Position numbers and translations under genes: made by a program. A stretch of DNA of 64,000 nt, from assembly GCA_010093605.1 (NCBI GenBank), contig MU004187.1:1-64000 (forward strand), written 5' to 3'. This document shows positions 24,085-41,566 of the stretch, in pieces. The DNA is from Lophium mytilinum (taxonomy: Eukaryota). Position 1 is the stretch's first letter. Each line of letters begins with the position of its first letter. The notes under the pieces are model-generated. The model saw nothing but the letters and a program-made list of their open reading frames with translations, was not told where the DNA came from and searched no databases.

Positions 24085-25908
24085 TCAGATCGGCTGGGTC
24101 AGCATTCCCGCCCAAATGAGGACGTGCCCTTGAGCAATATGCTGGGACGATAGCGTGGTCCATGGCTGCAAAGAATTAGTCGCGCTCGTTCTTCCATCGA
24201 CCTTCGCTATCCCAAAGACTCACGCTTGCAAGCTGATTGGCCTGCCCAATTCCCATCCCATGCCCAATCCACGAAAGCTCCTTTCGCATATGGGTACACA
24301 ATTCATGGGACACGATCGATGCATTGGCAACAACCCAAAGTGGATGAAGTAAAAGTAAGCCGCCCACTGGCCGCCCATCATACTTTGCTTCCCCACCAGT
24401 CTGAGCGCGTTGGACGTACTCACTCACGTCGTTCGTCAGGTGGTAAGGAATTGAGGCAGCAATGTCGTCGGCAAGCTGTTGAGCTTTGGGGTGTAGTTCG
24501 AAGCACACATCGCTTGGCTCGAGGTAATTCGAACATTTGACAATGATATCCAAGATCATCAGGTGCGTCTTCCGATAGGTGTTCCAGACCGCAGCAACGT
24601 ACACTGCATCCGTCAGGTCGTCAAGGTCATCCGCGAATAGCCAGACTCACGGTCGAAGTAGCTGTTAACGTCTCCTGGCCAGCCTGGAGATTTGGAAGAA
24701 TTCAATTGAGCTTCGCTGATGTTCCCGACCACCCGAGGTTCCCATTCTTTCGTCAACTTTGTGGGCCATGTAGAGATATGTCGCTCCAGATCTATCGCCT
24801 CTTGCCGCAGCGTCCGCACTTCTTCTAATTGACAGGACGGAGCAGCGAACAAGTCATTAGCCAAGTTGAATATAGGGTTGACTTTTATGAGGACGCTGTC
24901 CAGAGCCAAGACTGAGCGGTTGCGACTCGGTGCACAAAGCAGGCCAACATGTTTAGGTTGCTCGAGCGATATCAGCCGTGGTAAAAAGGTGCTACAAAGG
25001 TGGGAGAGCGCACACGTACTGGTAGAGAGTCCTGGAGCAGAAAGGCATTGCCGAGCTGAAACAATCGAGTGCCCGTGGAAAGGTCGAATGGGGAATCTTT
25101 CTTGGAGAGAATAGCGCCAACGCCTGAGACGTGAGCATTGTGCTGACTGGGGTCTGACTCGGTGCTGCTCACGATCTTTGCAGTTTAAGCCAATGACACG
25201 GTGAGCGCAGTGCGATACATTACGAACCTCATAGAGACCTAATAGAATCGCGGTTATCAAAACCTCTACCAAGTCAGACTCCGCCGCACGCATTAACCTC
25301 GACCGAAACGATTGGAGCAGATCTCCGTATTGCTGCTTAGTCCGGTACAGGATTTGCGGCCTGCGTAGTTTGTTCCCAGTCGTCGCGAGAGCTACGATCT
25401 TAGCTGCTTGGGCGATGTCGGAAGATTCCCCTGCGTGGTCGATCAAAGGTTTAAGGCCATCAAGGAAACCTCGTGAGATAGTTCTATCCGCCAACTCAAC
25501 ACAGTAACCGTCAAAGAACATCTCCAGCGCGTCCTTTTCTAAGCGCTCGTCATTGGGCTCGGGAATCACTGCTCCAGGTGGCGACATCGGTCTCTGTATT
25601 GTTATAGATGGGACTTCACTCAGCGCTGGAGGGCCGTAATTGCGGAACAAAACACCAGAGTTCTCCTGATAACCTAGGCAGACCCGGCCGGCCTTGATGC
25701 ATCGTTGGCAGTTCTATAGCCGTAAGAACTGTGGTCCATTTAAAGGGATTTGGGATAGATTGAGGTGAATTTACTCACTGGGCGGCTTTCATCGCACTGG
25801 GTGGTAGAACTACTTTAGCAAGAGTCATCCGCCTTGGTGTGGAGTTCCCACCTTCTTCCGCCTCTGCTTGCAAGTTGCGCATGCTCGGGAAGCTCCATAA
25901 TTTACCAT
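24085..25908 (-). CDS. Zn(II)2Cys6 transcription factor, multi-exon (18-nt microexon 25779-25796)
   Basis: MVNYGASRACATCKQRRKK|CDESRP|NCQRCIKAGRVCLGY; fungal TF body; spliced C-terminus GHVLIWAGMLTQPI*. Confidence 0.85.
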
Positions 25909-26508
25909 TGTGTATGCCTTTGAAGCTCTTCAATTGCTGCTGATTTCGCCGTCGTGATCGGTGAGCTAATGGAGAACGACGGCTGATGGGAAATCCAAGC
26001 ACCCCCTAGTTCCAAAGCTGGAGCCACTGAGTGCGCTAGGCATCGTCCCCACCTCGATCGAAGAGAGCAGAGAGGGTAGGCTAAAGCTGCAATGCGCTTA
26101 GTAGTGGGGCCCTGATTGCATGTTACCTTCTCTAGTGGACTGTCAGCTAACTGCTCCGCTTAAGCGTTCCACTACTTTCCTTCTTTCGCCTGACCTTACC
26201 AGTTCCGTCTCCACAACGTTCTAAAAATTCTCATATTACGCTCTCCTTCTGCTCCGTTTGTTCATGATGTTGTTCAGAAGCAGACCAAAAAGCGATACTG
26301 TCCTTACCTCGGCAATACAAAAGTATCCGGTGGTAAGATTGTCACGTGATATATGCAGCTCAATACTGGCCAGAATCTCTTTTCAATCTCTTCAAAGATA
26401 CCCAGTTCTTCTTTCTATTATCTTACAATGCGCTCGAATCCGTCATTTGCCGCGCCGAAGCAAGAATCGAAGCCATAATCATCAGACTAATGTAAAAAAT
26501 TCAAGTTC

Positions 26509-28161
26509 CTACCCTTCAACCCAGTTGCCGTGCAAGCCAGCCCTTAGACGTACAGGCAAATCAATAACTGCTTGCGGTTTCTCGAAGTCTCTAGTATCTA
26601 CAATATGCAACTCGCTGCCCATGGTAGCATAGTTATTGACGAGGGCCATGACCCAGCCGTCGCCTTCAGCTGTGTCTGCACCCTTCCTTGGAATGAAGAC
26701 GGGTTCCTGGACCAAATGTGTTCGGCCTGGGAAGTACTTGTAAATTTTCATACATTTGTAGTCAAGATGGCCCAAAGCGTTGTAAATCGGGTGTCCACCG
26801 CCCATTCTGGGCGCGATTGTGCCAAAGTCAGTTCCCAAATGCGGATCCATTAGATCGAAGAATGTATGCATATGTTTTGTTCCTAAGAATCTTTCGTCAA
26901 TGCGAGGAAACTCGCAGTCCTCTTTGCCGATGATTTGGGGCTCTGGGAGGTTGAGATCGGAAGAATGAGGATCGAAAGTGAAGCGGATGAGCTTTGCTGC
27001 GATGGTCTCGGGTTTGGGCGCATTGCCGTCGGCATCTGGCCACCAGAAGAATACATTCCTATCTGTGAGTGGCAGATCAAATACTAGGTTGCCCGATTCG
27101 TCTTCATATGCATTGACAGTATGACCTGGGAAAGCATTTGGCGCGCGAAACCATTTGACATCGGAGCCAGATGCACCACGGCGTGGGAGGACTCCGAGAT
27201 AGAATGGGCCGTTGGAGTCCCATTGCCAGTGCTCGCCGCCTTTCTTCATGCGTTCAAGGTCGCATGTTTGTGGGATGATAGGAAATAACACCTAAGTTGA
27301 TTAGTTCGTTTCTTTCAAGACATTCATTGGGACACGGGGACTTACCCAGTGCTTCGTAATGGCGAAATCATGAATCATTGCTACCACAGGTGCAACAAGC
27401 CAAACGGTTTCGGTGAGCTTTCCAGTAGAATCGACAGTAAAATAACACACATCCGGAGTACCATCACCTTTGGCTTCATAGCCGAAACAAAGAAGCTCGT
27501 CGCCATCGAGTTTTGGGTGAGCTGTAAAGGTCAAGCAGGGCAATTGGCCGTCAAAATCTTCTAAGCCGATGGTTTCAAGAGTCTCTGGGTCGAGAGAATA
27601 CGGAGGAGAATCTTCTTTGCAGGCAAGCAAACGGCCATTGAAGAACAAGACATTGGTATTAGCAGTGCTTCGAACCTTGAACTCCACAGCGTCGGTAAAC
27701 TTGTTGCGGTACTTGCCTATGAGGGAACTGTAAGAAAGCCTTCATGAAAGTGGATGGATATGGAAGCATCGTACCAAGCAAGGATCGCTTCGCTTCTCTT
27801 TCTTTAACAAACTTTTCGGTCCTAACGTATCTCTGCTTGAAATGGCAATGGCCGTCTTTGATTCGGAACGCGCTGATGTTACCGTCTCCATTGAACCACT
27901 ACATTGACTAAATCAGCCAATGGTGTTAAGCAAGGTGACGTCGCAACAGATTTTACGTACCGGGTCATTCTCGATGAATGGGGGCAGCTGCGGATCTGGC
28001 ATGACCCTGTAGAATGTGCCGTCGATTTCGAAAGGTATCTCACCACGGACTTCGAGATTATGGACCTCCCCTTCGAAACGACATGGCTTCATGAAGCCCG
28101 AGAATTGGGGGAGTTCGGGGAACGCGCTCCTGGGCTTTGTTGATCTGAAGTGGCCCGCCAT
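26509..28161 (-). CDS. Carotenoid-oxygenase-family stilbene (resveratrol/lignostilbene) cleavage dioxygenase, CAO-1/Rco1-like
   Basis: RFEGEV.NLEV.GEIP..I.GTFYRVMP, WFNGDG, FKVRSTANTN; four Fe-His motifs FTAHPK, MIHDF, FPGHTVN and GLHGNW; closely follows the recalled Neurospora CAO-1 sequence. Confidence 0.92.
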
Positions 28162-28354
28162 ATTGAAAGTGTCCAGTTATCGATTTCCGTCCCGACACCT
28201 TCGTTACAGAAGAAATGCGTGAAGTCAAATGGAATTGATGTATTACAAAGTTTGGTGGCGTGGGGCCACAAAGCCGCTAAATAGCCCATGGTGCCCCTGG
28301 CGCCCCTGGCAATACGAAACCGCGAGCGGAGGACGCCCGCCCGGAGGCGAAGAC

Positions 28355-28369
28355 CTTAACTCCCCGAAT
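28355..28369 (+). promoter_or_regulatory. Candidate cluster-specific element CTTAACTCCCCGAAT upstream of the stilbene oxygenase
   Basis: Exact 15-bp match at 39434-39448; 10-bp core in reverse orientation at 33285-33294. Confidence 0.55.
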
Positions 28370-28797
28370 CTGTTGCACCTCTCCGATTGGCCGAAAGCAT
28401 TTCGCTCTGGAGGATCACACCTTGCAATGACCGGCGGGCTGTAAATTAGCGAAGAGGGAACCGTACGCCGAGACGTTGCTGGAAAGCGTCTTCTTTAGGA
28501 GAGACATTGATTGAGAGGAGGAAGGAGTTTGAATGGCAATGGAGACAATGCACCAAGCCGGCTTCAAGTCTCTGCGTATTTGACACGCGAGACAACACAC
28601 TGTAGAGGAGTCAAGTGCTCGAGTTTTTCTTTCTTTTTACACTACTCAGCGAGTGTCCCTGTCCGCAGGTGTGGTGTTTATATCAAGGCCCGTTGCATTG
28701 CAAATAGTCACGAGCTTGACCAACTAGAATACTTCAAGCTTTTACATTTCTTCTCAAGCAGGAAGGTCTTCAACCAATGCCGCTAATCTAGTTCCCG

Positions 28798-30393
28798 TCA
28801 AGGATGCAGGATGATTGTTTTAGTTTGCAGGAATTCCTCGAACCCCCAGTGTGACCCAAATCGCCCCCATCCACTCTCCTTCCTGCCTCCGTGCGGTAAA
28901 CAAGCTTCATCATGCACAGTTGCCGAGTTGATATGAATAGCTCCCATATCAAGCTTTTTGGCGAGCTTCAAAGCCTTAAGGTAGTTGCGACTGAAGATAG
29001 CGCCCGATAACCCGTACGGAGAATGGTTCACCATCTGGACGGCCACGTCCTCCTCATCGAACACCCGTAAGCCCAGCAATGGCCCAAAGGCCTCTTGCTT
29101 CCAAAAGTCCATATCTGGCGTGACATCTTCGATGACGACTGACGGGCCGCAGGTCCCAACTTCCACAGCCGTCGTCGCGGCCCCTTTTTCCACTGCATTG
29201 CTGACGAGTGCATCAATTCTTGATCGGCTCTTTAGACTGATGACCTCTGTAACTTGCTGCAACACGGCGTTGGGCCGCTTTTGGTGTAGAATTGTCCGGA
29301 ACTGCTGCTCCACTGACTGTGCCACTAGGACCATATCTGTAGACATGCAAATTTGGCCAGACTATTGTTCTAAACCATCAGAGAGCCCACCTCCTAGAGG
29401 AATGTATCGACTTACATTCAGAAACGCCCCGAATAGTACCTGGTCCGCCGCCTTTGTGAGGTCCGCATCTTCAAGCACGATGGCGCAGTTTTTGCCTCCC
29501 AACTCCAGAAGTACGGGTTTGAGGTAAAATGCAGCTCGCTGGGCAACATGTTGACCGACGGCTGTGGAACCAGTGAAATTGCACTTCTGAACGGCTCTAT
29601 GAGATATTATGGCCTCGAAGCAACTAACAGCATCTTCCGGAGCGTGTTGGACGTAGTTGACCACTCCCGGAGGAAAGCCAGCATCCTGGAAGAGCTTCGC
29701 AAGCAGATAGTGGGTTCGAGGACTAATTTCAGAGCCCTACGTTGTGTCAATTGACATTACTCCAGCCGATCATAACTAACTTGGGAAATACGCACTTTGA
29801 GTATGACAGTATTTCCCGCGGCTACGGCTGCGGCAACAGCTCGAAGCCCGAGAATCAGTGGTGCGTTCCATGGCGCGATACCAAGCACGACACCAAATGG
29901 CTCTTTGACGACCACTGCATGTGCTTCTGTGTCCCTTATGATAGGAACTAGGCCAGACAAGATCCCAGAACTTGCTGTGGCGGCAACTTCTTCTGCTAGT
30001 GCGATCGAGTCGTTGACATTTATCTTCGCCCACAGGGCCGAACACAAGATTTCTTCTTGTATAAGCGTCTGTATCTCGTCCCTTTCATCCTGAAGAAGCT
30101 GCCGAAAACTCAGAATCAACGGTAATAGTGTGTGAAGTGCTGTACTTTACCTTTGCAAGGTTGTTAAATAGCCTGCGTCGCTCATACGGCGGCGAATCTC
30201 TACAAGTTGCAAATGCATTGGCGCATGACTCAACTGCTTGCATGCATAATGCTGGTGTTGCCCCTACTGCATAGACACTACGATTGCTACAATTGTCTGG
30301 GTTGGGTTTGAACAGCGGAGCAGATTCGTAGGTGGATTCGTCCAAGACGTCAAGACCATGAATGATCAGTGGAATGGTCGTGAAATTCGCCAT
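28798..30393 (-). CDS. Aromatic aldehyde dehydrogenase (vanillin/salicylaldehyde DH-like), multi-exon
   Basis: IAPWNAP, FTGST, ELGGKN, spliced N|SGQICMST (catalytic Cys), EAFGP, PHGGRKESGWGRFG. Confidence 0.93.
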
Positions 30394-30733
30394 GATTTAT
30401 CGTGTTGGTGGAAGTAATTGAATCGAAAGCTCATGGATTTGCTGGGTTGGGGATCGGTCTGCTAGAGCTCGTGAGTTATTGCTGTTATTTTATGCTTAAG
30501 GAGCCGCGATAGTGCATTACTAGGCATTTCACCATTTAGGAGCATTTTGTGCGGAATGGTTCCAATTGGCCTGCAACTCTCACGGGTGGGAAGCCGACGC
30601 CCGATGTATGGTGTATTCACCGGGCCCGACATCCCGGTGACCGCTACACTGTCTTGAAGCTATTCGAGGAACCCTAAAACCGACATCTGCCGGACCCTCA
30701 TTCCTACTTCCAGTTTTCATACCGCCTGCAAAC

Positions 30734-31675
30734 ATGCGAGTTGCGTGGACCCGATTGATTCGCTTTATCGCCACTGATGGCCGGCTTCTTCGCGGAGAGC
30801 CAATCCTGCCGGATCCAGATTTCGACCTGGGCACGACTACTGAACACAGCAAGCTACAGGCAAAAGTCATCATTGGAGAAGACCCTTACGACAACTCGGG
30901 GGTGACGAGAGTTTCTGATGAGATTGTCACCGTCAAAAAGCTTTTGGGACCACTCGCGCCAAATGACCTAGATATTTTACGCTGCGTAGGGCTCAATTAC
31001 GCCAAACATAGTAGGGAATGGTCTCTGCTGCTCCCCGTTATATCCTGCTAATGTTTCGAAGTCAAAGAAGCCGGTCGAACTCCGCCGCCTTTTCCATTCA
31101 TTTTCTTCAAGCCCACAACTTGCATCCACGATCATGGTGAAGATGTTATCATCCCTCAGATTGCTCAAGACGACCAGGCGGACTATGAGGGCGAGTTGGT
31201 CTTGGTGATTGGACAAGACGCAAAGGACGTCCCGCTCGAGCATGCTATGGATTATATTGCTGCTTATACGGCCGGCAACGACGTATCTTCGCGGAAACTG
31301 CAGCGCGACCCGAATCTGGCCGGCCGAGTTCCGCAATGGGGGTTTTCCAAAGGCTTCGACACGTTTGCTCCGCTCGGTCCTGCGCTCATTGCTTCTGAAC
31401 TGATTGGGGACCCGAAGGAACTCTTGTTGCAGACAATCGTGGATGGGGAAGTGAGACAGAAAGAATACATTAGCGACTTGCTCTTCGATTGTGCATATCT
31501 TGTGCATTATTTGTCTCAAGGTACAACGTTGCGCAAAGGATCAGTGATTATGACGGGAACTCCGGGCGGTGTGGGAGCTGGACTAAAGCCTCCAAAATAT
31601 CTCGTGCCAGGAACGGTCATGGAAATTTCGATAAGTAAGATTGGCACTCTCAGGAACGGGGTGAAGTTTGCATAG
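30734..31675 (+). CDS. Fumarylacetoacetate hydrolase (FAH) family protein, 1 intron
   Basis: CVGLNYAKH, FFKP, DYEGELVLVIG, GNDVSSR, KGFDTFAPLGP, MTGTPGGVG. Confidence 0.95.
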
Positions 31676-32000
31676 CAGGTTTTGACCATGGGTCTGCATT
31701 GAAAATCCAAGCAAAGCTCCGTCATCAAGACTTCTGCTCATTAAATTCACCTGCCCGTGCAAGAAAACTATTTCAGAACTGCCAACAGCAAACTCGCCTT
31801 TTTTGCGTTGAGATCAATGATTAATCCAAAGAAAGATTCATGATCATGTGGCTCGCGGAGAAAGTAGGAGGTAAGGCTTTCAAATCTTCGAGTCCGAGTC
31901 GCAGCAGATGTACATCAGCAAAGACGTGCAATGGAGAATTCGCCTACATATGCAAAAGAGACATTCGGTATCATCAACGCATATATTCCATAACCGACTA

Positions 32001-33113
32001 CTAAGACACTAACGATTCCAAATCTTGGCCGTTGTATCTGTAAAATCCAAGGGATTTGAGCATAGGCTCATCATGAACTCTGTATAGGTACACTGTCTCT
32101 CCATCACCCGCATGGTGTTGGTACTCATGCCACGACGGAATGCAGAAAGTGTCGTACTTCTTCCAGCTGAACTCTCTTCCATCGATCGTGGTTGTTCCGG
32201 AACCCTCAATCACGTGGAAGATTGACGAAGCCGTCTCTTGAATCTTCGGGGTTGACTTTCCTGGGGAGATGCGAGTAGCAGAAGTACCTAATGTGCGGCT
32301 TACTGGACTTTGTTAGTGTCAATCAAAGTAAGGCAACCATAAGTCTATGACGTACTTTCAGATCCATCTGCCTTGTAGTAGCCCTTCGTCGTACTCTCGC
32401 CGCTGCCAGCGTCGAGCTGGACCTTCATGCGGGTCCATGGGAAGACAAGTGGAGAAGCTGAAGTATCCACGTTTTTGGCCGGATACCGTGGGTCGGCATA
32501 ATGCTCTACAAAATGCACCGGGAAGTGTACAAAGCTTGGGAGATCCAAGCCATCGAGCCAAATCATGGGTCCAGAACCATCTTTGCCATGATCGTGCCAG
32601 TTCCAGGTCGGGGTCAAGATGACATCGCCGCGTTGCATCTGGATGCGCCGACCGTGCACAGCAGTGAAACCACCATTACCCTCGATGATGAAGCGACAGG
32701 CAAAGGCAGTGTGGCGATGAGCTGGCGCCGTCTCGTTGGGCATGACTAGTTGAAGCCCAGCGTAAATGGTATCGGTCGTATAAGGCGCTTCTGCGCATGT
32801 ATGAGCCTTCTGATATTTAGAGAAGGGGCTTCTTACCTCGAGAGGGATTTACAAGCATCAATACACGTCGTTCCGCTTGTTTCTCAGTGATAAGTTCGCC
32901 AGCTTGCAGCAGACTCGGTCGAATCTTCTCATATTCCCACACGTGGGGGTGGCATTTTGGATTCGGTAGAGGAGGATTAAGGCGTGCCATCTGTGCCCAT
33001 AGTGGCTTCGTGTGATAGTCTTCAGCAGCCTTCAGCAGGTTCTTCGTCAGTTGTTCTCGATCAACATGCGTCGAAATGCCATTTTGGCCACTAATAGTTG
33101 CAGTGGAGCTCAT
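32001..33113 (-). CDS. Gentisate 1,2-dioxygenase-like bicupin, 3 exons
   Basis: [60 protein letters not shown]. Confidence 0.92.
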
Positions 33114-33511
33114 AATGGTGTAGCTGGGATTGAGGGTGCGAAGGCCGCTGTCAGTCCTGTGTTTCGTCTTGTTCTATTTCTATGTTTTATTCTTTCGATC
33201 AACTCAAGTGGGAATTTTGATACGATTTCAACAATTGCATATTCAACTACAGGAAATGGGGCCAATGAGGGCTGGAGCATTCGCCGGGGAGTTAGGAGGG
33301 CCGAAGCTGCGGGGAGAGTGGAGACGGACGGGACGCGTAAGGTGGAAAGGGGTCGTCTATTTCCCCGCGCGCAACCCCCCGCAAAGCCCTGTTCCTCGAC
33401 TTTTTCTATCATCACCAAGCTCTCCGGCTACATTGGAGTCTAAGTCCCCGAAGGACTGCAAAGGGGGGATAGGTTCCGAGCTACGCTGACTCTGCTCCCT
33501 GCTCCCAAGAC

Positions 33512-36338
33512 ATGGCGTCGACCGATGCAGCGAGCAGAACGGGCGCCAGCATCTCCGCCAATCACGGCACAGATACAAGACCAGCAAAACGGAATAGGAT
33601 CACAATAGCTTGTACGTGGTGCAGGCAGCGCAAGTCCCGCGTAAGTCTGCTATTCTTTCTAGCCATCTGGCAGCGTTGAGACTACGCTCTAGAATAGTCG
33701 ACATTGTACTCTTTAAGCATGGCGCTTTGGGCTTTGGAATCAGCATTGCTGTATAAGATAATAAAGCGCGCATCTCATCCAACCTAAGTGCTAGCATATC
33801 CATCATAATCTTCAGCATGAAATACCCTCACCGTCTTTCATTGATTGCTAACAGTTCACGACTTTCAACAGTGTGACGGAGCAAGACCAAAATGTTCTAC
33901 ATGCCGCGACCACGGGTTTGACTGTACATACTTGAATTTAACATCGTTGACAAAAGCATCTGCATCCAGAGAGTCAGTTATTCCGTCGGAACTAGTACCC
34001 TCTTCTGGTTATATCTTACCCCTTGTAGGTATCTTGAAGCACTCGAGTCCCGCTTAGCCGCACTTGAAAGTTCAGTTGGAGGAATATCTAGTAGAGTGAC
34101 CCGCATTGAAGGGTCCAGAACCGATACTGTAGTCACAAATGAAAGCCCTAGCCAATCATTCTCGACTCATACTCCTCACCTTCTCGGTCTTCAGGATGAT
34201 GAGGGAACGATAGTTGAGGCCCAAGATTCTACTGATGGGATCGGCTCTGTCTCTTTCACTAAAGAGGAGGAATCTGGCTTCTTTGGTTAGGACACTATCA
34301 AAACGCGCTATGATTGCTGACGACTGACTGGTACAGGACCATCGTCCAACATATCTTTTACCCGGCAGATTGTTCGCACGACAACCGCAATTCTCAAAAC
34401 TACCGCATCGGCTGTAAGTCCAGCTTCGTCGAGCGATGCCGCCCTTCAGAGTCACCTTCTTCATGTGTCCCGTCCACCGTCTCCTGTATCAAATCGGTTC
34501 AAGGACTCATACAACATCGCAATCGGCACAGAACCCTTTGTCCTCCCACAGGAGGATGAAACTGTGCAAATGATAGAGCGATTCTTCAGCACAACGGGCG
34601 TTCTATTTCCATATATCGACGAGGAGGCTTTCCTGAACACGTATCAGGACCTCACATCTACAAACATTCGGACAGTACGGAGGTCATGGCTTGGTCTATT
34701 GAACATGGTGCTTGCCATGTCGACGAGTGCCAGTCAAGGAAACGGACTGACGCCAGCTGAGCGAGCTGCCAAATCCGACATATTTTTTCGTCGGGCTTTG
34801 GCACTCTGCGAGAAACAAATTCGCCACGGAACAAGCTTAGAAGTTGGTATGTCTGGGTGCATGAATTCCCAAAACGGCAGCGACGCTAATTTCTCATAAG
34901 TCCAGTTGCTGCTCTTGATGAGTCAGTATTTGCAAGGCACTGAACGCTCCATTGAGACTTGGAACATCCACGGCCTCACTGTAAAATCTGCATATCAGCT
35001 TGGTCTTCACTCACGAGATGCGCTCAAACAGTACCCACCGTTAGAAAGGGAGATCCGCAAGAGAACTTGGTTCGGCTGCGTTGTATTAGATCGGCAAGTT
35101 ATTTTCACTCTGACAGAGCCTCATCATCTTACCAGCAACAGTACCTTAAGTATGACCATGGGTCGCCCAGCTTCCATCCCTGAGAACTATGTCAAATTGG
35201 ACCTCCCATGTTCTTTCAAAAGCATCCTCCCTGCCGCTGTGAACTGCCACCAGAGCTCGGTCGACGAACATAGTGTTGAATTTTACACCGGAACAATGTA
35301 GGAATCTCTCATTAAGACCTACCTCCATGCTGCTCACGCCAAGATAGAACACTCTATAAAATCATGGGCGAGATCGTCGACGTTCTTTACGGAAGTAACT
35401 TGGGCTGTGGAGTACCTGATAATGTGTTCGACATTGCTTCGCATTTACTGCAATTTGAACAAAAGTTTCTCACCTGGCAGCAGTCCTTACCAGCAGCTAT
35501 GTCGCTGGTTGAGCCGGAAACTCTCCACTCCGAAGCAGACGACCAAGGCACTCTCAGGTTCCGAGTCATCCTTACTCTACGTTTCTTGAATCTTCGGATT
35601 CTAACGCACCGTCCGTTACTCTCAAAATACCTCGAATCGATACGTAGCGCACATTCCGCCTCTCAACAATTACATTTGTTAAAGCAAGTGGGCACAAATA
35701 GCGTGCGGACTTGTGCCCAATCCGCAATCGCTATAATTAAGCTGATGCAACAGGTGCTGATTCCTACAAGCCCTCCTCGACATGTGCTGGGTGCTTGGTG
35801 GTTTTCCCTTTACTACGGTAAGTTATGTCACCTGCATACACCGTCCTTTCGTTCTCTGCTCATAAGGACAGCGTTCAATGCCGCTCTCGTAATATTCTCC
35901 ACACTTCTTGTACAGCACCAAGCAAGTATCTATAATCATTCCCTGGCACTCGAGGATATCGGCCTGTCGATGGATTCTCTCCACCAAGCAATCGAGTGCC
36001 TGAAGCTGTTGTTCAAGGGGAATAGAATGACGGAGAAATGCGTCCGATATACTACGTCCCTCGCTCATATGCTGTCATTGATCCGTAAGTCATGCTAGCA
36101 TCTCATGTCAACAAGCACTAGTTGACACCCAGTCTTAGACCGCCCAGCAGGCGCTCCTGAATTAAGCTTGGGTAGCTTCTCAGCCGACCCACTCGGGCAT
36201 TTTCCATCGCGGCGAACGCCAAATGTTGGGCAGTCGCATGACTTATTTGATTTCATCGATTCGACAGACGCGCACATGGGCATGAGTTTGGACGATCTCT
36301 TGGGCACTTCAGACTTCAACTTCGTGTCTTCTAATTAG
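33512..36338 (+). CDS. Zn(II)2Cys6 transcription factor with Fungal_trans domain, multi-exon
   Basis: KRNRITIACTWCRQRKSR|CDGARPKCSTCRDHGFDCTY; AYQLGLH...EREIRKRTWFGCVVLDR; GAWWFSLYY. Confidence 0.9.
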
Positions 36339-36498
36339 CGTTGGGCTTGCTAAGGATAATAATCGTGTCAAGAAGAGGCAGCGGGGAAACATCTTATATA
36401 GAAACGATGTCCGTTCCCGTGCGTTATAATTCGTGTGCTCGCGAGTGACTATATGAGAAGGGTTATTGGTGTAGACTAGTGCCTTGATCCCTCTCTTG

Positions 36499-38261
36499 TC
36501 ATCCCGCTCGAATGATCAAATCCCGAACAGCTTCGTTCCATGCCTCTTCCATCCTTTTCTCAGCATCGTGTCCATATGCCCACCATTGTGTGACTGGATC
36601 GCTCCATTGATTTGCACTCTTGGTAAACGGAGAACCTACAACCTCGGCGGCCATAGAAGCATCTCTCGCTCTTTGCTCTGGGCCGTCCGCAAAGTGCCAA
36701 ATCAGTCCGTTTACCGTGCTAGCATTCTGCATGTCGCTGCTTCTCTTGATACGTTCCTTTTCAAATGCTCGCATCGCGAATGGGAGTTCTTCGAGAGTAG
36801 AGATACAATTCAGGACGACAGCAAGGGCGGCACTATCTTCGACGGCCATGGCGGCACCTTGTGACATGTAAGGCAGCATAGCATGAGCAGCATCGCCGAG
36901 GATTACCAATTTTGCTGAGGGTGAAGTCCAAGAATTTAGCTGTTTTCCGACTTTCAATGGCCATTTTACGGATTCATCGATCAGGGAGATGATCTTGGTC
37001 AACCTGAGAAAGCTTGATCAGCTAGTTAGGTAATAATCTGAGTTCATGATATCTACTTACTGAGGATCCCATCCGCTGAATTCTTTTTGAATGTGTTCTT
37101 TCGCAAACCTTTCGGTCCAGGTCGCCGGTTCAGAGTGGTCAATGTGGGATAAAACCATGTTGAATGAGTCTCCTCCGGCGATTGTATATGTCATTACATG
37201 TCTGTCCTCGCCAATCCTACGCAGCTTGTTATCAGGCTTTGTGATTCTTATAAGAGACCTCAACGGTGACTTTGGGTGAAACTGTGGCATACCAGACGTT
37301 CAGCGAAGGTTTCTCTAGAATCCAGGCAATTTCAGGATCTTTTTGCATCTTTTGGACGTCGACTGTTGCTCGATATGCAGCGAAGCCATTGAACTGAGGA
37401 TCTTGACAAAGATTTGGGTGGATAGCTTTTCGTGCCCTCGATTTAATTCCTGAATGGTCAGATGAGCCGTTGAAAATGCTGTAGATACCGGACTGCAAGG
37501 CACTCTTCAACTTACCATCAGCGGCAACCACCAAGTCTCCTTGGATAACGGAGCCATTTTCCAGCACAATTGTTGAATGCTCTTCATGATACTGAACGAC
37601 CCTAGACTCTAATTCCACCAATACACCTAAGTCTAACGCTCGTTGGTGCAGAGCTTCATGAACGTGAGCGCGATGGACCACGTAATAAGGTACCTCGAAA
37701 TCTTCTTGAAACGACTTCCCGAGAGCGGTATAACCTATGGTTTGGCCGTTTTCCCACCTTCGAAAGTTGATGCCCTCTGGTTTGACTGCCAGTTTTTCCA
37801 AATACTCAAAAACTCCCCATCGGTGGAGCAATCGTCCGGAATTTGGAGGGATCTGAATCCCTGCTCCGACCTATTTGAATGCATGAATTGGCGTCCGCTT
37901 TCGAGAAATCATAGGAGGTGGGACCTACTTCTCCAAGCTTTGATGACTGCTCCAGTACTCGCACCGAGTGTCCTCTTCGAGCTAGAGCGATTGCAAGAGA
38001 AAGCCCGCCAAGTCCTGCTCCGACAATAACGATGTTCAATCTGAGGCGTGCTGGTGTTGGATGACTGGAAGAGAGCGATTCTTGCGGCGAAGTTACTCTG
38101 TCTTTCAGATTCTGAAGGAATCGTAACGACTGAGATGGATACGAAATTGTCAGACTTGGCTGGGAGTGACGTGCGATAGCCTGCTGACTTCTTTTGGGAC
38201 CATTAATGGCAGGCGCAGGGCCATACATCATGGACGTATGTTCTTCCTCTGCCTGAAGCAT
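36499..38261 (-). CDS. FAD-dependent monooxygenase (salicylate hydroxylase / 3-hydroxybenzoate 6-hydroxylase-like), multi-exon; start uncertain
   Basis: IVGAGLGGL FAD-binding motif, EVGAGIQIPPNS (spliced), VAADG|IKS, LGDAAHAMLPYMSQGAAMAVED. Confidence 0.9.
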
Positions 38262-38679
38262 AGCGGCTGGCGTCAGTCCCAAATGGCTTGCTCGAGGGGA
38301 GTGTTTGATTGGGATCGTGCAAGAAGTGAAGAGGTGCAAAGTGCGTCATCGAATCTGAAGAAATATAGATAGCAGTATCATCAATCTATGGCTGGCTCAG
38401 GATACATCTGAGCTTGTTCACGCGCCGCTAGCAGTGCGCCAGCGGGGAGGAAGGACAATGTGCTAGTCCTCCCAGCCGCAGATCCCGCAGCCGCGGAAGC
38501 AAGCCCCCGAAATACATCCACTCCGTCCAAAGAAGGCTTCAAACTAATACGTTGCTGTGATATTCTAGATTGTATTATCAGCTTGCGTCATATGCTAAGC
38601 GATTTGCTTGTAAACTTCAGAAGAGTGGAAGTCTCTGTCAAATTGCTTGCGAATCTGATACATAAAGTCGATGAAACAG

Positions 38680-39158
38680 CTATGAAATCTCGTAGACGTC
38701 GATTATAACGCGTTTTGGAAGCTTTGGAGGACGAAGATCTCCAGGAAAACAAGTACTGTTCAACCAATCTACTGGTCCAGGGGCAACTTCGAATCTCGGA
38801 AATGTCTTTGTGTACCACGCCGCGCCCCCATCCTTCATTGACGCCTTTGACGGGTCGTCTTCAAATACCTCCCACATCGTCTCCTGACTTGCTCTGCCGT
38901 ATCGTTCGCTGGTCACGTTGACGAGAGTCCCAGCTTCAGCTTCGATTGTGTACTTGGCAAAAACGTCGACCACACCATCTGCTCTAGCAGCGTTCCAATC
39001 CCCCCACGCGAGAGAATCTTCCCTTTAGTTTTGGGTCCATCGGATCGCCTCCCAGTGATCGGGATAAACCTTCTTTCACCCGCAGCAGTTTTGCCAAATT
39101 GATGGGGAGGAGCTAGATCGACACGTAAAGTGAAAGCGTATTCAAGCCTTAGCGTCAT
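38680..39158 (-). pseudogene. DUF3237/UPF0311-family gene with a 1-bp frameshift (or sequencing error)
   Basis: ERRFIPITG...GKIL in one frame and DWNAARADGVV...KYTIE...PRFEV...WLN in another. A G6 run at 39000-39005 needs 7 G to join the two frames. Confidence 0.75.
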
Positions 39159-39433
39159 GACTGCTGGTAGTTTTTCGGCGCAGAAGGTGTGGCCAAAGTT
39201 AGGGTTCTGTTTGTAATGCTCGAAAGTGTAATAGTGAGAGTCAGTGCGATGATATAGCGTGGTACATTGGTCAGTATTATATTCATGCGGCCTAGCCTGC
39301 TCATCATCAGTGTCAGCCTGGGTGAGTCGGATCGATAGGTCTTGACTCAGTAGACAGTATGAATGGATGATCTAATCTCGAGTTCGAATGGGCCGTCACC
39401 GGCTGGCGCGAAATGCCGATGTTTCGTGTGACT

Positions 39434-39448
39434 CTTAACTCCCCGAAT
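39434..39448 (+). promoter_or_regulatory. Second copy of CTTAACTCCCCGAAT in the DUF3237/MFS divergent promoter
   Basis: Identical to 28355-28369; an adjacent partial copy CTCCCCGAA at ~39458. Confidence 0.55.
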
Positions 39449-39780
39449 TCCTCCAATCTCCCCGAACCCCCTGGGGAGAAGCGAGTACTAGTGCTCCAGC
39501 TCCAATAGCAATCCTAGCGTTGCTATCCCCTGGAATGGCCAAAAGCCACGCAAGCCTTCTCCACATGAAAAGCTGGGGAATGAGGAGAAGAAAGCTAAAC
39601 ATGCTGCGTTTTCAGTGCGAGCGAGTTATTCCTTTTTGGTCGAGTTATCGGAGCGGGAGATATCAGCGGCAAATGTAGATCATGCATTGTAAGTATAAAT
39701 CTTTAATGTCACTTTTTGCATCTCCTCTGATTTACAGCCGTTTCTTCCCAATCCCTGCTAGATTCATCATACCTCCGAAG

Positions 39781-41566
39781 ATGTTGACGACTGACTCCAA
39801 CAAAGCCACCGAAATACGGCAGGCCGCCGCCAAACACCATGGTTTACCTCTCCTTCCACGTCCCACCGATGACGAGAGAGATCCCCTGCGATGGCCTCGA
39901 AGTCTGAAGCTAGCTGCACTTATTGCAACAGCCTTTGTCAACTTCACGGCCAATTTTGCTGGCGCGGGACTTTCGGTTGCATCTCCAGTGTTACAAGCGC
40001 AATTCCACAAAACACCAAATCAGGTCAACAGTCTGCTGACCGTGAGTCTTACTTCAGCGCATTGAATGTGTTTCAGCTCTAACTACCCCCTTAGTTCAAC
40101 TTCCTGCTTCTCGGAGTTGGAAACCTCTTCTGGGTACCGCTTGGCGTCAAGTTTGGCAAACGAGCATCGCTTCTCATCTCCACCTTGATACTCTTTGCTG
40201 TACTCGTTTGGACCGCAAAGGAAACAGCATTCGCTGGCTTGTTAGCTGCAAGATGCTTGTCAGGTTTTGCATCAGCGGCCGGAGAAGTGAGAGTTTCCGG
40301 TATAGACATGCCGCAAAGCTGACTCCATCGCAGAGTATTGTCCCCAGCATTGTCACCGACATCTTCTTTCTTCACGAACATGCCGCTATGATGTCTTGGT
40401 AAGTTGTTTGGCTCCAACTTAGTGCGACAACCACTGATCAATGCTCAAGGTATACAATCCTCGTCTCCAGTGCTACGGCGATTGGTCCCCTCGTGGCATC
40501 GTTTATCGTACAATATAGCCGTGGTGGATGGGTTGATTACGTATGGGTTTGTGCCGCGCTTGCTGGTGCGAACACCGTGGCGATCTACTTCTTATATCCA
40601 GAGTCCAACTTCAACAGACCGAAAGAACCGCTACATCGCGTCTCGGTAACAGGTGAGGACGCAGACAAAGTCCAGGTTGTGAAAACGGAAACCATTTCTC
40701 GCCATCGTGTTAGCGTGGTATCCAAGTCTTGGTTCAGTATCTGGACGAGCGTATTCACCATCAATCGTGAAATCAATATATTGGAGGTGGCATTGCGTCC
40801 ATTAAAGATGCTTCTTCGGCCAAGTGTTCTCCTAGCTACATTCATCTATGGAACCAGTCTTGCATCTCAGATTATTCTCATGTAAGCTGATCTGGATGAT
40901 TATGCGGTAAGACGGGCGCTGACGGCTGCAGATTCGCATTCCCAAGTTTGCTCCTTGCGCCGCCGTATCTATTTTCTAGTAGTCAGGTCGGACTCATGCA
41001 GATTGCGGCGATAATTGGGTTCTCGATTGGCTGCTTTGCTGGCGGTTATATTGCTGATATCATCACCGCAGTAGTGATCAGAAGGCAGACGGGTAATGTG
41101 TATCCGGAGCAACGGCTGGTAGCGCTCATTCCTGGTTGTCTGGTCGCCCCAGCTGGATGCATTCTTATCGCTTTCGCCTGCTCTGACAAGTTGCACTGGG
41201 TTGCGATCGCATTTGGATTTGGCATGGGTACGTATCAATCCGGTCGCCTTAGGCCTCGGCCACTCTAATTTGCTCGCAGTTTCATTCGGGACGATATACG
41301 CTCCCAATATTGCCATTACTTACGTCGTCGAGTGCTATCCTAGAGTTGTTGCAGAGTGTCTAGTTGCGATAAATGTCTTCAAGAATCTTGTCGCATTCCT
41401 GTTTCTGTATACTGCTGTGGACTGGGTTGCTTCAAGCGGTTGGACTCAGGTATACATGATTATGTTCATGCTAGTTTCGCTCAGCATGCTTTTGGCCATT
41501 CCGTTCTACTTCTTTGGGCCGAAGTGGAGAGGACAGGTTGACATATCCAACGTGAGTGAGGAGTGA
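39781..41566 (+). CDS. MFS transporter (HOL1-like), multi-exon
   Basis: PRPTDDERDPLRWP; GNLFWVPLGVKFGKR; DIFFLHEH; PEQRL; TYVVECYP. Confidence 0.9.

What the first reader, a model, noticed from the sequence alone, without database searches (positions are those of the whole stretch)
26509..38261. Apparently complete stilbene-to-central-metabolism cluster via a gentisate-type route
Seen contiguous: CAO-1-like oxygenase, aromatic ALDH, FAH hydrolase, gentisate-1,2-dioxygenase-like cupin, Zn2Cys6 TF and FAD hydroxylase, flanked by a second TF and two MFS genes. Established: CAO-1/Rco1 cleave resveratrol to 4-hydroxybenzaldehyde and 3,5-dihydroxybenzaldehyde. Inference: ALDH gives 3,5-dihydroxybenzoate; the monooxygenase hydroxylates para to a 3-OH to give a hydroxygentisate (2,3,5-trihydroxybenzoate); the cupin cleaves the ring; FAH hydrolyses the product. 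Similar gene groupings have been noted in comparative fungal genomics, but to my knowledge the fate of the resorcinol ring has not been shown biochemically.
Basis: partly seen in the sequence, partly recalled or inferred. Interest (0 to 1): 0.75.

Follow-up and report, generated by a model that had tools for sequence, protein, structure and literature searches.

The report
Fungal stilbene and gentisate-type degradation cluster
This is a real fungal gene cluster for breaking down plant stilbene defence compounds such as resveratrol, of a type already described by comparative genomics, whose later chemical steps are still unproven.

Summary
Six co-located genes lie at 26509-38261: a stilbene-cleaving oxygenase, an aromatic aldehyde dehydrogenase, an FAH-family hydrolase, a gentisate-1,2-dioxygenase-type bicupin, a Zn2Cys6 regulator and a group-A flavin hydroxylase. 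A second Zn2Cys6 gene and two MFS genes flank them, and an unmentioned DUF3237 gene sits among the flanks.

The cluster type is already published. It is the "GC cluster" (Greene 2014), "SCO cluster model 2" (Gluck-Thaler 2018) and the isomerase-less "gentisate-like cluster" (Martins 2021). This copy is a new member; its database twins are Lophium mytilinum proteins.

It is plausible but untested.
- **Hydroxylase:** its closest solved relatives are para-hydroxylating benzoate hydroxylases (PcMNX1, GsMNX1). One of them also makes gentisate from 3-hydroxybenzoate. It is far from classical salicylate hydroxylases.
- **Dioxygenase:** it keeps every carboxylate- and iron-binding residue I checked.
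- **Missing isomerase:** none is in the window. The hydroxygentisate cleavage product could tautomerise and would then need none (my inference).
- **Against plain gentisate:** A. terreus carries such a cluster and cannot grow on gentisate.

The other scan note on such a cluster concerns another genome. My literature searches found no biochemical proof of the downstream steps.

The parts
21915..23733 (-). MFS transporter 1 (flank), MFS_1 family, three exons
   Evidence: Pfam MFS_1 on two ORF pieces. Introns 22250-22295 and 22884-22973 are seen in RNA contigs.
24088..25713 (-). Second Zn2Cys6-type regulator (flank). The 5' exon or exons upstream of 25713 are not resolved.
   Evidence: An RNA contig shows introns 24166-24223, 24604-24650, 24961-25019 and 25176-25227. 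The spliced ORF of 470 aa opens with the C-terminal half of a Cys6 zinc cluster. No Pfam hit on the unspliced ORF. The first half of the zinc cluster was not found.
26509..28161 (-). Stilbene cleavage oxygenase (RPE65/CCO family, CAO-1-like), 492 aa, three introns (27292-27345, about 27716-27774, 27899-27960)
   Evidence: RPE65 pieces cover profile 2-468. Model. Two introns are seen in RNA contigs. N. crassa CAO1 (5u8x) scores E 4.9e-90 over 258 aa of the last exon. 8 of 8 SCO motifs are present (motifs).
28798..30393 (-). Aromatic-type aldehyde dehydrogenase, about 479-484 aa. The first (43-nt) intron and the N-terminus are uncertain.
   Evidence: Aldedh profile 57-461 lies on three pieces. 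Model. The best solved relatives are vanillin, salicylaldehyde, 4-hydroxybenzaldehyde and benzaldehyde dehydrogenases. The catalytic Cys motif is present.
30394..30733 (.). Divergent ALDH/FAH promoter holding a perfect 8-bp inverted repeat, TCACCGGG-N8-CCCGGTGA, at 30617-30640 (CGG-N10-CCG). It is a candidate Zn2Cys6 site, unproven.
   Evidence: The dyad screen was not statistically significant.
30734..31675 (+). FAH-family (FAHD-type) enzyme, 296 aa, one intron (31011-31061). Predicted acylpyruvate hydrolase.
   Evidence: FAA_hydrolase E 3.6e-57. Model. Metal motif DYEGEL. The best solved relative is 8sky at E 7.2e-38, followed by HpcE-type enzymes, a 2,4-diketo acid hydrolase and FAHD1 acylpyruvase. 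8sky is B. subtilis YisK, an oxaloacetate decarboxylase (search listing only).
32001..33113 (-). Gentisate-1,2-dioxygenase-type bicupin, 337 aa, two introns
   Evidence: Two Cupin_2 domains. It is identical to database protein P0121, with exon identities of 100, 100 and 98% by tblastn. E. coli GDO 2d40 scores E 1.8e-63. 11 of 11 checked active-site positions are conserved.
33512..36098 (+). Cluster Zn2Cys6 transcription factor, about 714 aa. The first intron (33641-33871) splits the zinc-cluster coding region.
   Evidence: Zn_clus and Fungal_trans hits. Frames and model. One RNA contig lies at 34601-34834.
36499..38261 (-). Group-A FAD monooxygenase of the MNX1/3HB6H kind (para-hydroxylating benzoate hydroxylase). 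The annotated start is at 38228.
   Evidence: FAD_binding_3 and Rossmann hits. Model. Database twin P0001. Against solved structures it scores 280 bits with 8gsm, 277 with 8x38 and 273 with 8r2t, but 116 with 3HB6H and 92 with NahG. Residue checks.
38680..39158 (-). DUF3237 protein, 149 aa. Probably a bystander.
   Evidence: Pfam DUF3237. Database twin P0241. Only 6 relatives were found in the length range searched.
39535..41566 (+). MFS transporter 2 (flank). The model is approximate.
   Evidence: Weak MFS_1 hits on three ORF pieces. Model.

Best explanation
**What it is.** This is a substrate-inducible catabolic gene cluster of the published fungal 'GC / SCO model 2 / gentisate-like' type. 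I put that membership at about 0.9.

**Proposed mechanism.**
1. The CAO-1-like oxygenase cleaves the central double bond of 4'-hydroxystilbenes (resveratrol, piceatannol, pterostilbene). It yields a 4-hydroxybenzaldehyde-type half and a 3,5-dihydroxybenzaldehyde-type half. This is shown for orthologues elsewhere and inferred here.
2. The aromatic ALDH oxidises the aldehydes to the acids (inferred).
3. The flavin monooxygenase hydroxylates para to the phenolic OH held by its conserved His. With 3,5-dihydroxybenzoate this gives 2,3,5-trihydroxybenzoate, and with 3-hydroxybenzoate it gives gentisate (inferred).
4. The GDO-type bicupin opens the ring between C1 and C2 (inferred).
5. The product of 2,3,5-trihydroxybenzoate would be 3-hydroxymaleylpyruvate. 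This can tautomerise to the symmetric 2,4,6-trioxoheptanedioate, so no cis-trans isomerase is needed. The FAH-family enzyme would split it into pyruvate and oxaloacetate. This step is my chemical inference and is untested.

The Zn2Cys6 factor presumably switches the genes on, and an MFS protein imports the substrate. The 4-hydroxy ring must be finished by pathways encoded elsewhere. The confidence figure is for the whole mechanism, including the resorcinol-ring route.
For: **Gene content and order:**

**SCO:** N. crassa CAO1 scores E 4.9e-90. Carotenoid oxygenases score 1e-11 or weaker. All 8 motifs listed for characterised fungal SCOs are present: four His, three Glu, YRN and KE for the 4'-OH, and EF for the 3/5-OH. 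MoSCO, the SCO of a model-2 cluster, cleaves pterostilbene, piceatannol and resveratrol but not isoeugenol or pinosylvin.

**ALDH:** its top solved relatives are all aromatic aldehyde dehydrogenases.

**FMO:**
- It scores 273-280 bits with PcMNX1, GsMNX1 and 8gsm.
- The equivalents of the PcMNX1 base His247 and the binding residues Tyr251, Gln79 and Tyr134 are conserved.
- PcMNX1 hydroxylates 3-hydroxybenzoate to gentisate and decarboxylates 4-hydroxy acids. The position attacked is therefore para to the bound OH.

**GDO:**
- The three iron-binding His and Arg127, His162, Gln108, Arg83 and Asp174 (numbering of the 2phd chain) are all conserved.
- These positions are invariant or nearly so in the 118 of 120 fungal homologues that passed a 290-400 aa length filter.
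- The ring-cleavage substrate should therefore still carry its carboxylate.

**No isomerase:** no GST- or GFA-type isomerase domain was found anywhere in the window.

**Literature against plain gentisate:** isomerase-less 'gentisate-like' clusters have an unknown role. A. terreus, which has one, cannot grow on gentisate, and its cluster is induced only late on salicylate.

**Conserved linkage:** FMO and GDO locus tags lie 1-2 apart in 11 species. The GDO groups with Pleosporales and M. oryzae MGG_10213, as in the published GC-MC type.
Against: - No substrate was tested, and nothing in the sequences singles out 3,5-dihydroxybenzoate.
- The GDO is indistinguishable from ordinary gentisate dioxygenases at all 11 positions checked. 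The same residues occur in all fungal clades, so a plain gentisate substrate is equally compatible.
- At the position where bacterial 3HB6H has Gln301 (mutating it to Pro brings decarboxylation), the FMO has Pro like the decarboxylating MNX1 enzymes. Pro was found in 107 of 120 homologues, with 13 unmatched by my pattern and no Gln. It may therefore decarboxylate 4-hydroxy acids.
- The closest solved relative of the FAH-family protein is an oxaloacetate decarboxylase, not a proven fumarylpyruvate hydrolase.
- SCO and ALDH are only variably present in published clusters of this type. The core can therefore work without stilbenes.
- No shared promoter motif reached significance.
Confidence: 0.5

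Rival explanations
1. The cluster is an ordinary 3-hydroxybenzoate/gentisate pathway. The FMO makes gentisate from 3-hydroxybenzoate and the GDO cleaves gentisate. Maleylpyruvate is then isomerised spontaneously or by an unlinked enzyme, or is hydrolysed directly. SCO and ALDH are a loosely attached feeder module or serve another purpose.
For: - The GDO has the full gentisate-dioxygenase residue set and no clade-specific change at the 11 checked positions.
- The related C. parapsilosis cluster (MNX2, GDX1, FPH1, HBT1, GTF1) does exactly this.
- PcMNX1 makes gentisate from 3-hydroxybenzoate.
- SCO and ALDH are only variably present in such clusters.
- Greene et al. assumed spontaneous isomerisation.
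Against: - A. terreus, which has an isomerase-less cluster, cannot grow on gentisate. The authors conclude that its cluster has another, unknown role.
- The C. parapsilosis cluster does contain a candidate isomerase, GFA1. None is found here.
- No common stilbene yields 3-hydroxybenzaldehyde on cleavage, so the tight SCO-ALDH linkage would go unexplained.
Confidence: 0.25
2. The FMO works as a decarboxylating 1-hydroxylase on the 4-hydroxy ring. It would turn 4-hydroxybenzoate, protocatechuate or vanillate into hydroquinone, hydroxyquinol or methoxyhydroquinone. The bicupin would cleave a hydroquinone-type product, with the ALDH and FAH enzymes acting on ring-fission products.
For: - The closest solved relatives of the FMO are all decarboxylating hydroxylases, at 273-280 bits.
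- The FMO has Pro at the switch position where the Q301P change gives 3HB6H decarboxylase activity.
- Every SCO product includes a 4-hydroxy ring.
Against: - The bicupin keeps the residues that bind the substrate carboxylate in GDO and SDO, namely Arg127 and His162 (their roles are recalled).
- The known fungal methoxyhydroquinone dioxygenase is homogentisate-dioxygenase-like, not GDO-like.
- The FMO has Trp, like 3HB6H, where the decarboxylases have Phe. Trp was found in 106 of 120 homologues.
- MoSCO does not cleave isoeugenol.
Confidence: 0.1
3. The cluster detoxifies the plant hormone salicylate by 5-hydroxylation to gentisate followed by ring cleavage.
For: Database names call many homologues 'salicylate hydroxylase'. 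Greene et al. discuss such clusters in endophytes and biotrophs.
Against: - The FMO is remote from NahG-type salicylate hydroxylases (82-92 bits).
- PcMNX1 shows no activity on 2-hydroxybenzoate.
- The A. terreus cluster is not induced early on salicylate, and the authors exclude that role.
Confidence: 0.05
4. The genes are neighbours by chance and do not form one pathway.
For: No co-expression data exist for this genome. No significant shared promoter motif was found.
Against: The FMO-GDO linkage recurs in 11 species across several fungal classes. Published analyses found more retained synteny than expected and co-diversification of the clustered genes.
Confidence: 0.03

Closest known systems
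Aspergillus fumigatus 'gentisate catabolism (GC)' cluster Afu4g01470-01560 (Greene et al. 2014, PMC3914699; passages and one section read)
   Same: The gene set is the same: stilbene dioxygenase, aldehyde dehydrogenase, salicylate-hydroxylase-like FMO, gentisate dioxygenase, fumarylpyruvate-hydrolase-like FAH, C6 transcription factor, MFS transporter and a flanking second C6 protein.
   Different: The gene order differs. By the GDO tree, this copy belongs to the Magnaporthe/Pleosporales (GC-MC) lineage rather than the Aspergillus/Penicillium (GC-E) lineage. Greene et al. found no ALDH in GC-MC clusters, whereas here the ALDH sits next to the SCO.
'SCO cluster model 2', e.g. Magnaporthe oryzae, with the characterised MoSCO (Gluck-Thaler, Vijayakumar and Slot 2018, bioRxiv 10.1101/343673; sections 15 and 21 and passages read; supplements closed)
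   Same: It has the five defining genes: sco, gdo, salicylate-hydroxylase-like FMO, fph and a Zn2Cys6 TF. The SCO motifs are identical in kind. The window's GDO groups near M. oryzae MGG_10213.
   Different: This copy adds an ALDH and is found in a Mytilinidiales-like Dothideomycete. I could not see their Figure S15, which shows the predicted downstream chemistry.
'Gentisate-like cluster' of Aspergillus terreus, ATEG_06711-06714 (Martins et al. 2021, PMC7842363; passages read; also FAMeDB 2026, PMC13094099)
   Same: FMO, GDO and hydrolase occur without a maleylpyruvate isomerase, and the role is acknowledged as unknown.
   Different: As described, the A. terreus cluster has four genes and no SCO or ALDH is mentioned. 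The window's cluster has both.
Candida parapsilosis gentisate-pathway cluster MNX2-HBT1-GDX1-FPH1-GFA1-GTF1 (Cillingova et al. 2022, PMC8929692; passages read)
   Same: It also combines a flavin hydroxylase, GDO, FAH-type hydrolase, MFS transporter and Zn2Cys6 regulator, and it lies in a subtelomeric setting.
   Different: It has a candidate glutathione-dependent isomerase (GFA1) and no SCO or ALDH. Its substrate is 3-hydroxybenzoate/gentisate. The Gtf1 motif GGAN7TCC occurs only twice in the promoters here and 15 times in the 50-kb background.
PcMNX1 (8x38), GsMNX1 (8r2t) and R. jostii 3HB6H (4bjz), group-A flavoprotein monooxygenases (JBC 2026, PMC13559804; passages read)
   Same: The fold family is the same, and so are the base His and the Tyr/Gln/Tyr that hold the carboxylate.
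   Different: The switch pair is Pro + Trp here. It is Pro + Phe in the decarboxylases and Gln + Trp in 3HB6H.
Neurospora crassa CAO-1 (5u8x), a stilbene-cleaving oxygenase
   Same: By my count of the alignment printed, 136 of 258 aligned residues of the last exon are identical. The iron and 4'-OH motifs are the same.
   Different: Whether CAO-1 lies in such a cluster was not checked here.

Membership tests
Fungal GC cluster / SCO cluster model 2 | Co-location of sco, gdo, salicylate-hydroxylase-like FMO, fumarylpyruvate-hydrolase-like FAH and a Zn2Cys6 TF | tested here: met
   All five lie within 11.8 kb.
Fungal GC cluster / SCO cluster model 2 | The clustered genes fall in the clades of other clustered copies (co-diversification) | tested here: met
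   In the GDO FastTree, the window sits in a 10-row set with Pleosporales (support 98), next to Thozetella, M. oryzae MGG_10213 and Lomentospora (supports 80-90). The FMO hit ranking follows the same order of taxa. This is FastTree only, with a midpoint root.
'Gentisate-like' (isomerase-less) cluster | No maleylpyruvate isomerase gene in the cluster | tested here: met
   No GST or GFA domain was found among 231 ORF pieces covering the window. The pieces were at least 70 aa in 22-44 kb and at least 85 aa elsewhere, so small exons could be missed.
Stilbene cleavage oxygenase (CAO-1 / NOV1 type) | Four iron-binding His, three second-shell Glu, YRN and KE motifs for the 4'-OH, and an EF motif | tested here: met
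   8 of 8 motifs were found, using the motif list.
Stilbene cleavage oxygenase (CAO-1 / NOV1 type) | Cleavage of 4'-hydroxystilbenes | not testable with these tools
   There is only homology to CAO1 and the published activity of MoSCO.
Gentisate 1,2-dioxygenase | Bicupin with three iron-binding His in the N-terminal cupin, plus Arg83, Gln108, Arg127, His162 and Asp174 (numbering of the 2phd chain) | tested here: met
   All are conserved in the alignment to 2phd and 2d40 and are invariant or nearly so in 118 fungal homologues. The residue roles are recalled from the SDO/GDO structure papers and were not read here.
Bacterial 3-hydroxybenzoate 6-hydroxylase (3HB6H) | Gln301, which orients 3-hydroxybenzoate | tested here: not met
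   This position is Pro in the window and in 107 of 120 homologues, with 13 unmatched and no Gln. I therefore do not file the FMO as a 3HB6H, although it may work like one.
Bacterial 3-hydroxybenzoate 6-hydroxylase (3HB6H) | His213 base, Tyr217, Gln49, Tyr105 and Trp362 | tested here: met
   All equivalents are present. Trp occurs in 106 of 120 homologues.
MNX1-type decarboxylating 4-hydroxybenzoate/vanillate 1-hydroxylase | Pro337 together with Phe395 (PcMNX1 numbering) | tested here: inconclusive
   Pro is present, but Phe is replaced by Trp. These enzymes are the best solved relatives at 273-280 bits.
NahG-type salicylate 1-hydroxylase | Close sequence similarity | tested here: not met
   6bz5 scores 92 bits and 5evy scores 82 bits, against 280 bits for the top hit.
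Fumarylpyruvate / acylpyruvate hydrolase (FAHD branch of the FAH family) | FAA_hydrolase domain with an acidic metal-binding triad | tested here: met
   Pfam E 3.6e-57 and the DYEGEL motif.
Fumarylpyruvate / acylpyruvate hydrolase (FAHD branch of the FAH family) | Hydrolase rather than decarboxylase or isomerase activity | not testable with these tools
   The solved relatives include a decarboxylase (YisK), isomerase/decarboxylases (HpcE), diketo-acid hydrolases and FAHD1.

The most novel reading that the evidence does not exclude
The isomerase-less 'gentisate-like' clusters of fungi are not gentisate pathways. They would be alpha-resorcylate (3,5-dihydroxybenzoate) pathways, running through 2,3,5-trihydroxybenzoate and a GDO-type cleavage to 3-hydroxymaleylpyruvate. 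That product tautomerises to the symmetric 2,4,6-trioxoheptanedioate, which one FAH-family enzyme splits into oxaloacetate and pyruvate.

This reading would explain three things at once: the missing isomerase, the failure of A. terreus to grow on gentisate, and the recurrent linkage to stilbene oxygenases. The Pro+Trp hydroxylase might also decarboxylate the 4-hydroxy half, so that one enzyme would serve both rings.
Probability: 0.3. Interest if true: 0.65.

Novelty: new member of a known kind. Interest (0 to 1): 0.4.

Why it matters
Stilbenes such as resveratrol, pinosylvin relatives and piceatannol are major antifungal defences of conifers, grapevine and grasses. Fungi that can consume them gain access to protected tissue.

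The first cleavage step is known. What happens to the resorcinol half is not established in any fungus in the literature I could search. Recent papers (2021, 2026) still call the role of the isomerase-less 'gentisate-like' cluster unknown.

This window gives a compact, apparently intact copy in a relative of a conifer-wood saprobe; that habitat is recalled, not checked here. It includes the aldehyde dehydrogenase that links the cleavage step to the ring-opening module. It therefore makes a precise three-enzyme hypothesis directly testable in vitro. As a cluster type it is not new.

Tried and rejected
- **Own genome:** none is held for this window. Paralogues and a possible canonical gentisate cluster elsewhere could not be sought.
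- **Expression:** no RNA holder was listed on record. One coded run, guessed to be RNA, held 7% of the sampled words. Laid on 22000-41999, it gave spliced contigs over MFS1, the second TF and parts of the SCO, plus one piece of the TF. Nothing covered the ALDH, FAH, GDO or FMO genes. The uncovered parts say nothing about expression.
- **Shared promoter motif:** I screened all 3-mer/gap/3-mer dyads over four core promoters. The best was CGG-N9-CCC, with 6 sites against 0.8 expected. Given the number of dyads tried this is not significant, and the sites share no longer consensus. CGG-N10-CCG occurs in two promoters only. The C. parapsilosis Gtf1 motif GGAN7TCC occurs twice.
- **DUF3237 as a missing pathway enzyme:** only 6 relatives were found, in a search limited to 62-200 residues. 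The Mytilinidion copy lies on a contig of different length from that species' nearest FMO homologue. No case could be made.
- **GDO residues that would mark a hydroxygentisate enzyme:** none were found among the 11 known positions. The only near-fixed difference of this clade close to the active site is Cys124, where 100 of 104 other sequences have Met.
- **A fungal 3HB6H anchor (C. parapsilosis Mnx2):** its sequence could not be obtained with the tools. The decisive comparison of the Pro/Trp signature was therefore not made.
- **Literature searches that found nothing relevant:** the 3,5-dihydroxybenzoate / 2,3,5-trihydroxybenzoate phrase search (0 papers) and the vanillate 1-hydroxylase search (off-target). 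One search failed on term syntax.
- **First gene-model enumeration:** it was unusably verbose and was replaced by a ranked version.

Full report
**1. What is in the sequence**

The window is eukaryotic: its genes are interrupted by short GT..AG introns. I scanned stop-to-stop ORF pieces of 22-44 kb against Pfam. The scan found the following, in order:
- MFS_1 (22195-23739, -)
- RPE65 in four pieces covering profile 2-468 (26512-28176, -)
- Aldedh in three pieces (28801-30146, -)
- FAA_hydrolase (31052-31672, +)
- two Cupin_2 domains (32004-32848, -)
- Zn_clus plus Fungal_trans (33845-35298, +)
- FAD_binding_3 with a Rossmann N-terminus (36502-38345, -)
- DUF3237 (38683-39371, -)
- weak MFS_1 (40095-41265, +)
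- RidA and PhyH further on

I built gene models with a splice-site enumerator and checked them against database twins and RNA contigs.

| Gene | Coordinates | Strand | Length |
|---|---|---|---|
| SCO | 26509-28161 | - | 492 aa |
| ALDH | 28798-30393 | - | about 480 aa |
| FAH-family | 30734-31675 | + | 296 aa |
| GDO | 32001-33113 | - | 337 aa |
| Zn2Cys6 TF | 33512-36098 | + | about 714 aa |
| FMO | 36499-38228 or 38261 | - | not settled |

The 366-aa ORF upstream that had no Pfam hit is part of a spliced gene. Four introns are seen in an RNA contig. The one addition is the DUF3237 gene between the FMO and the second MFS gene.

**2. Source**

The best database proteins for the FMO, the GDO and the DUF3237 gene are all named Lophium mytilinum. 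All three lie on a contig of 2,251,244 bases. By tblastn the GDO exons are 100, 100 and 98% identical, and the first FMO exon is 100% identical. The window is thus from that species or a near-identical strain (Mytilinidiales, Dothideomycetes).

The annotated FMO model omits 12 residues. These align to a 12-residue insertion in all three best solved structures, and the DNA encodes them in frame. It is probably a splice-model error.

**3. The enzymes**

*SCO.* The last exon (260 aa) matches N. crassa CAO1 at E 4.9e-90. By my count of the printed alignment, 136 of 258 residues are identical. Lignostilbene dioxygenases score 1e-37 to 1e-48, and carotenoid oxygenases score 1e-11 or weaker. All eight motifs that Gluck-Thaler et al. 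list for characterised SCOs are present. Two of its three introns are seen in RNA contigs.

*ALDH.* The top solved relatives are vanillin, salicylaldehyde, 4-hydroxybenzaldehyde and benzaldehyde dehydrogenases.

*GDO.* E. coli GDO scores E 1.8e-63. Eleven positions were checked, using the numbering of chain 2phd: the iron ligands His119, His121 and His160, and Arg83, Val/Ala85, Tyr/Trp104, Gly106, Gln108, Arg127, His162 and Asp174. All carry the residues of true gentisate dioxygenases. They are invariant or nearly so in the 118 of 120 fungal homologues that passed a 290-400 aa length filter. The roles of these residues are recalled, not read here.

*FAH-family.* The closest solved structure is 8sky (E 7.2e-38). 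Next come HpcE-type isomerase/decarboxylases, a 2,4-diketo acid hydrolase and the FAHD1 acylpyruvase. Maleylpyruvate hydrolase is much weaker at 4.5e-16. By a search listing, 8sky is B. subtilis YisK, an oxaloacetate decarboxylase.

*FMO.* Using the database twin, 8gsm scores 280 bits, PcMNX1 (8x38) 277 and GsMNX1 (8r2t) 273. Bacterial 3HB6H scores 116 and NahG-type salicylate hydroxylases 82-92. I read passages of the 2026 JBC paper on PcMNX1. It reports three things:
- These enzymes hold the phenolic OH with a His base and the carboxylate with Tyr/Gln/Tyr.
- PcMNX1 decarboxylates 4-hydroxy acids but hydroxylates 3-hydroxybenzoate to gentisate.
- Gln301 of 3HB6H (Pro337 in PcMNX1) and Trp362 (Phe395) steer the outcome. 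The Q301P change gives decarboxylase activity.

The PDB chain numbers are the paper's numbers plus 3. In the window the His, Tyr, Gln and Tyr are conserved, and the switch pair is Pro plus Trp.

Among the 120 listed homologues:

| Residue at the switch positions | Homologues (of 120) |
|---|---|
| Pro (13 unmatched by my pattern, none with Gln) | 107 |
| Trp | 106 |
| Pro and Trp together | 98 |

The clustered FMOs therefore form their own Pro+Trp type, between the two characterised types.

**4. No isomerase**

Across 231 ORF pieces of the whole window, no GST- or GFA-type domain appeared.

**5. What is already known**

Greene et al. 2014 described this gene set as the 'gentisate catabolism (GC) cluster', with A. 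fumigatus Afu4g01470-01560 as the type. They found 23 clusters in 214 genomes and proposed horizontal transfer between Magnaporthe relatives and Pleosporineae. They already suggested that the stilbene dioxygenase plus aldehyde dehydrogenase complete a path from stilbenes to the citric acid cycle, helped by relaxed GDO specificity.

Gluck-Thaler et al. 2018 called it 'SCO cluster model 2' and found 35 clusters in 550 fungi. They showed that MoSCO, from such a cluster, cleaves pterostilbene, piceatannol and resveratrol but not isoeugenol or pinosylvin. They left the downstream steps to future work.

Martins et al. 2021 named the isomerase-less form the 'gentisate-like cluster'. They reported that A. 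terreus, which has one, does not grow on gentisate and induces the cluster only late on salicylate. They concluded that its role is unknown. FAMeDB (2026) still says that functional validation is pending.

A 2025 review of A. niger aromatic metabolism mentions neither stilbenes nor 3,5-dihydroxybenzoate. My searches for resveratrol, dihydroxybenzaldehyde and gentisate in fungi, and for trihydroxybenzoate and gentisate, found no biochemical study of the resorcinol ring. The library is mostly open-access papers, so this is not proof of absence.

**5a. Conservation seen here**

Locus tags of FMO and GDO homologues lie 1-2 apart in 11 species: Ascochyta lentis, Boeremia exigua, Kalmusia sp., Scytalidium lignicola, Cudoniella acicularis, Pseudogymnoascus sp., Trichoderma semiorbis, Fusarium nematophilum, Stylonectria norvegica, Aspergillus nanangensis and Neoarthrinium moseri. 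In one species (Curvularia kusanoi) the tags are 104 apart. The other hits have non-positional tags or occur in only one of the two lists. This was matched by eye, not counted systematically.

In a FastTree of the 118 GDO homologues the window sits with nine Pleosporales sequences (support 98). Thozetella, M. oryzae MGG_10213 and Lomentospora lie next to that group (supports 80-90). Other Dothideomycetes that I recall as close kin of Lophium (Glonium, Cenococcum, Lepidopterella) fall in a second clade, together with second copies from Kalmusia and Paraphaeosphaeria. This matches the published GC-MC lineage and extends it to a Mytilinidiales-like fungus. Greene et al. found no ALDH in GC-MC clusters, yet here it is adjacent to the SCO.

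**6. How it most likely works**

*Shown elsewhere:* SCOs of this kind cleave 4'-hydroxystilbenes into a 4-hydroxybenzaldehyde-type half and a 3,5-disubstituted benzaldehyde half.

*Inferred:*
- The ALDH makes the acids.
- The FMO hydroxylates para to the OH held by its His.
- The GDO needs the carboxylate.

Of the two acids from resveratrol, only 3,5-dihydroxybenzoate can give a 2-hydroxybenzoate with a para OH, namely 2,3,5-trihydroxybenzoate.

*My added chemical inference:* C1-C2 cleavage of that compound gives 3-hydroxymaleylpyruvate. This is the enol of the symmetric 2,4,6-trioxoheptanedioate. It has no fixed double bond, so no isomerase is needed. An acylpyruvate hydrolase would yield pyruvate plus oxaloacetate. 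That would account for the missing isomerase and for the A. terreus phenotype.

None of this is tested. The GDO sequence does not distinguish gentisate from hydroxygentisate. The Pro at the switch position leaves decarboxylation of 4-hydroxy acids open.

**7. Rivals**

| Reading | Weight |
|---|---|
| Ordinary 3-hydroxybenzoate/gentisate pathway with an optional SCO/ALDH feeder | 0.25 |
| Decarboxylating route on the 4-hydroxy ring with hydroquinone-type cleavage | 0.10 |
| Salicylate detoxification | 0.05 |
| Chance neighbours | 0.03 |

The evidence for and against each is given in the Rival explanations section.

**8. Verdict**

The cluster type is already known and this is a new member, so novelty is low. 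It bears on an acknowledged open question and is directly testable with three recombinant enzymes. Interest 0.4.

Noticed in passing
window 1-13500: An AT-rich block (GC 17-34% against about 50% in the rest) with a run of N at 4798-5382 and almost no long ORFs. It looks like a RIP-type or repeat-rich region. The catabolic cluster starts about 8 kb beyond its edge.
   Followed up: no
window 37871-37928 and database protein P0001: The public gene model of the FMO skips 12 residues just after the GxGxxG motif. All three best solved structures have those residues, and the DNA encodes them in frame. It is probably an annotation splice error. Conversely, my own model missed an in-frame intron inside the AADG/IKSRAR region, which the public model has.
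   Followed up: partly
window 32740 region (GDO residue 124): The residue just before the carboxylate-binding Arg is Cys in all 14 sequences of the window's GDO clade. It is Met in 100 and Leu in 4 of the other 104 fungal homologues. The significance is unknown.
   Followed up: partly
window 30617-30640 and 38494: A perfect 8-bp inverted repeat, TCACCGGG-N8-CCCGGTGA (CGG-N10-CCG), lies in the divergent ALDH/FAH promoter. A second CGG-N10-CCG lies in the FMO promoter. They are candidate Zn2Cys6 sites but are not statistically supported.
   Followed up: partly
window 38680-39158: A DUF3237 gene (149 aa) lies between the FMO and the second MFS gene. Only 6 relatives were found, the closest in Lophium and Mytilinidion. 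Its function is unknown.
   Followed up: partly
window 22000-25713: One RNA contig of 3674 bases runs across both the MFS gene and the second Zn2Cys6 gene, which lie on the same strand. This means either overlapping transcripts or read-through. A contig does not prove a single transcript.
   Followed up: no
window 42096-53189: Beyond the cluster lie RidA (42096-42527, -), a PhyH-type dioxygenase (43052-44190, +), an amino-acid permease (44676-46252, -), a GMC oxidoreductase (47445-49364, +), another Zn2Cys6 factor (49462-51357, -) and an SDR (52191-53189, -). They may form a second small catabolic group.
   Followed up: no
window 20602-21480: A GH28 polygalacturonase gene (E 1.8e-117) lies just upstream of the flanking MFS gene.
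   Followed up: no
database protein P0111: The same species has a second FMO of this family (494 aa, 50% identical over the exon used) on another contig of 2,850,822 bases. It may belong to a second, perhaps canonical, gentisate cluster.
   Followed up: no
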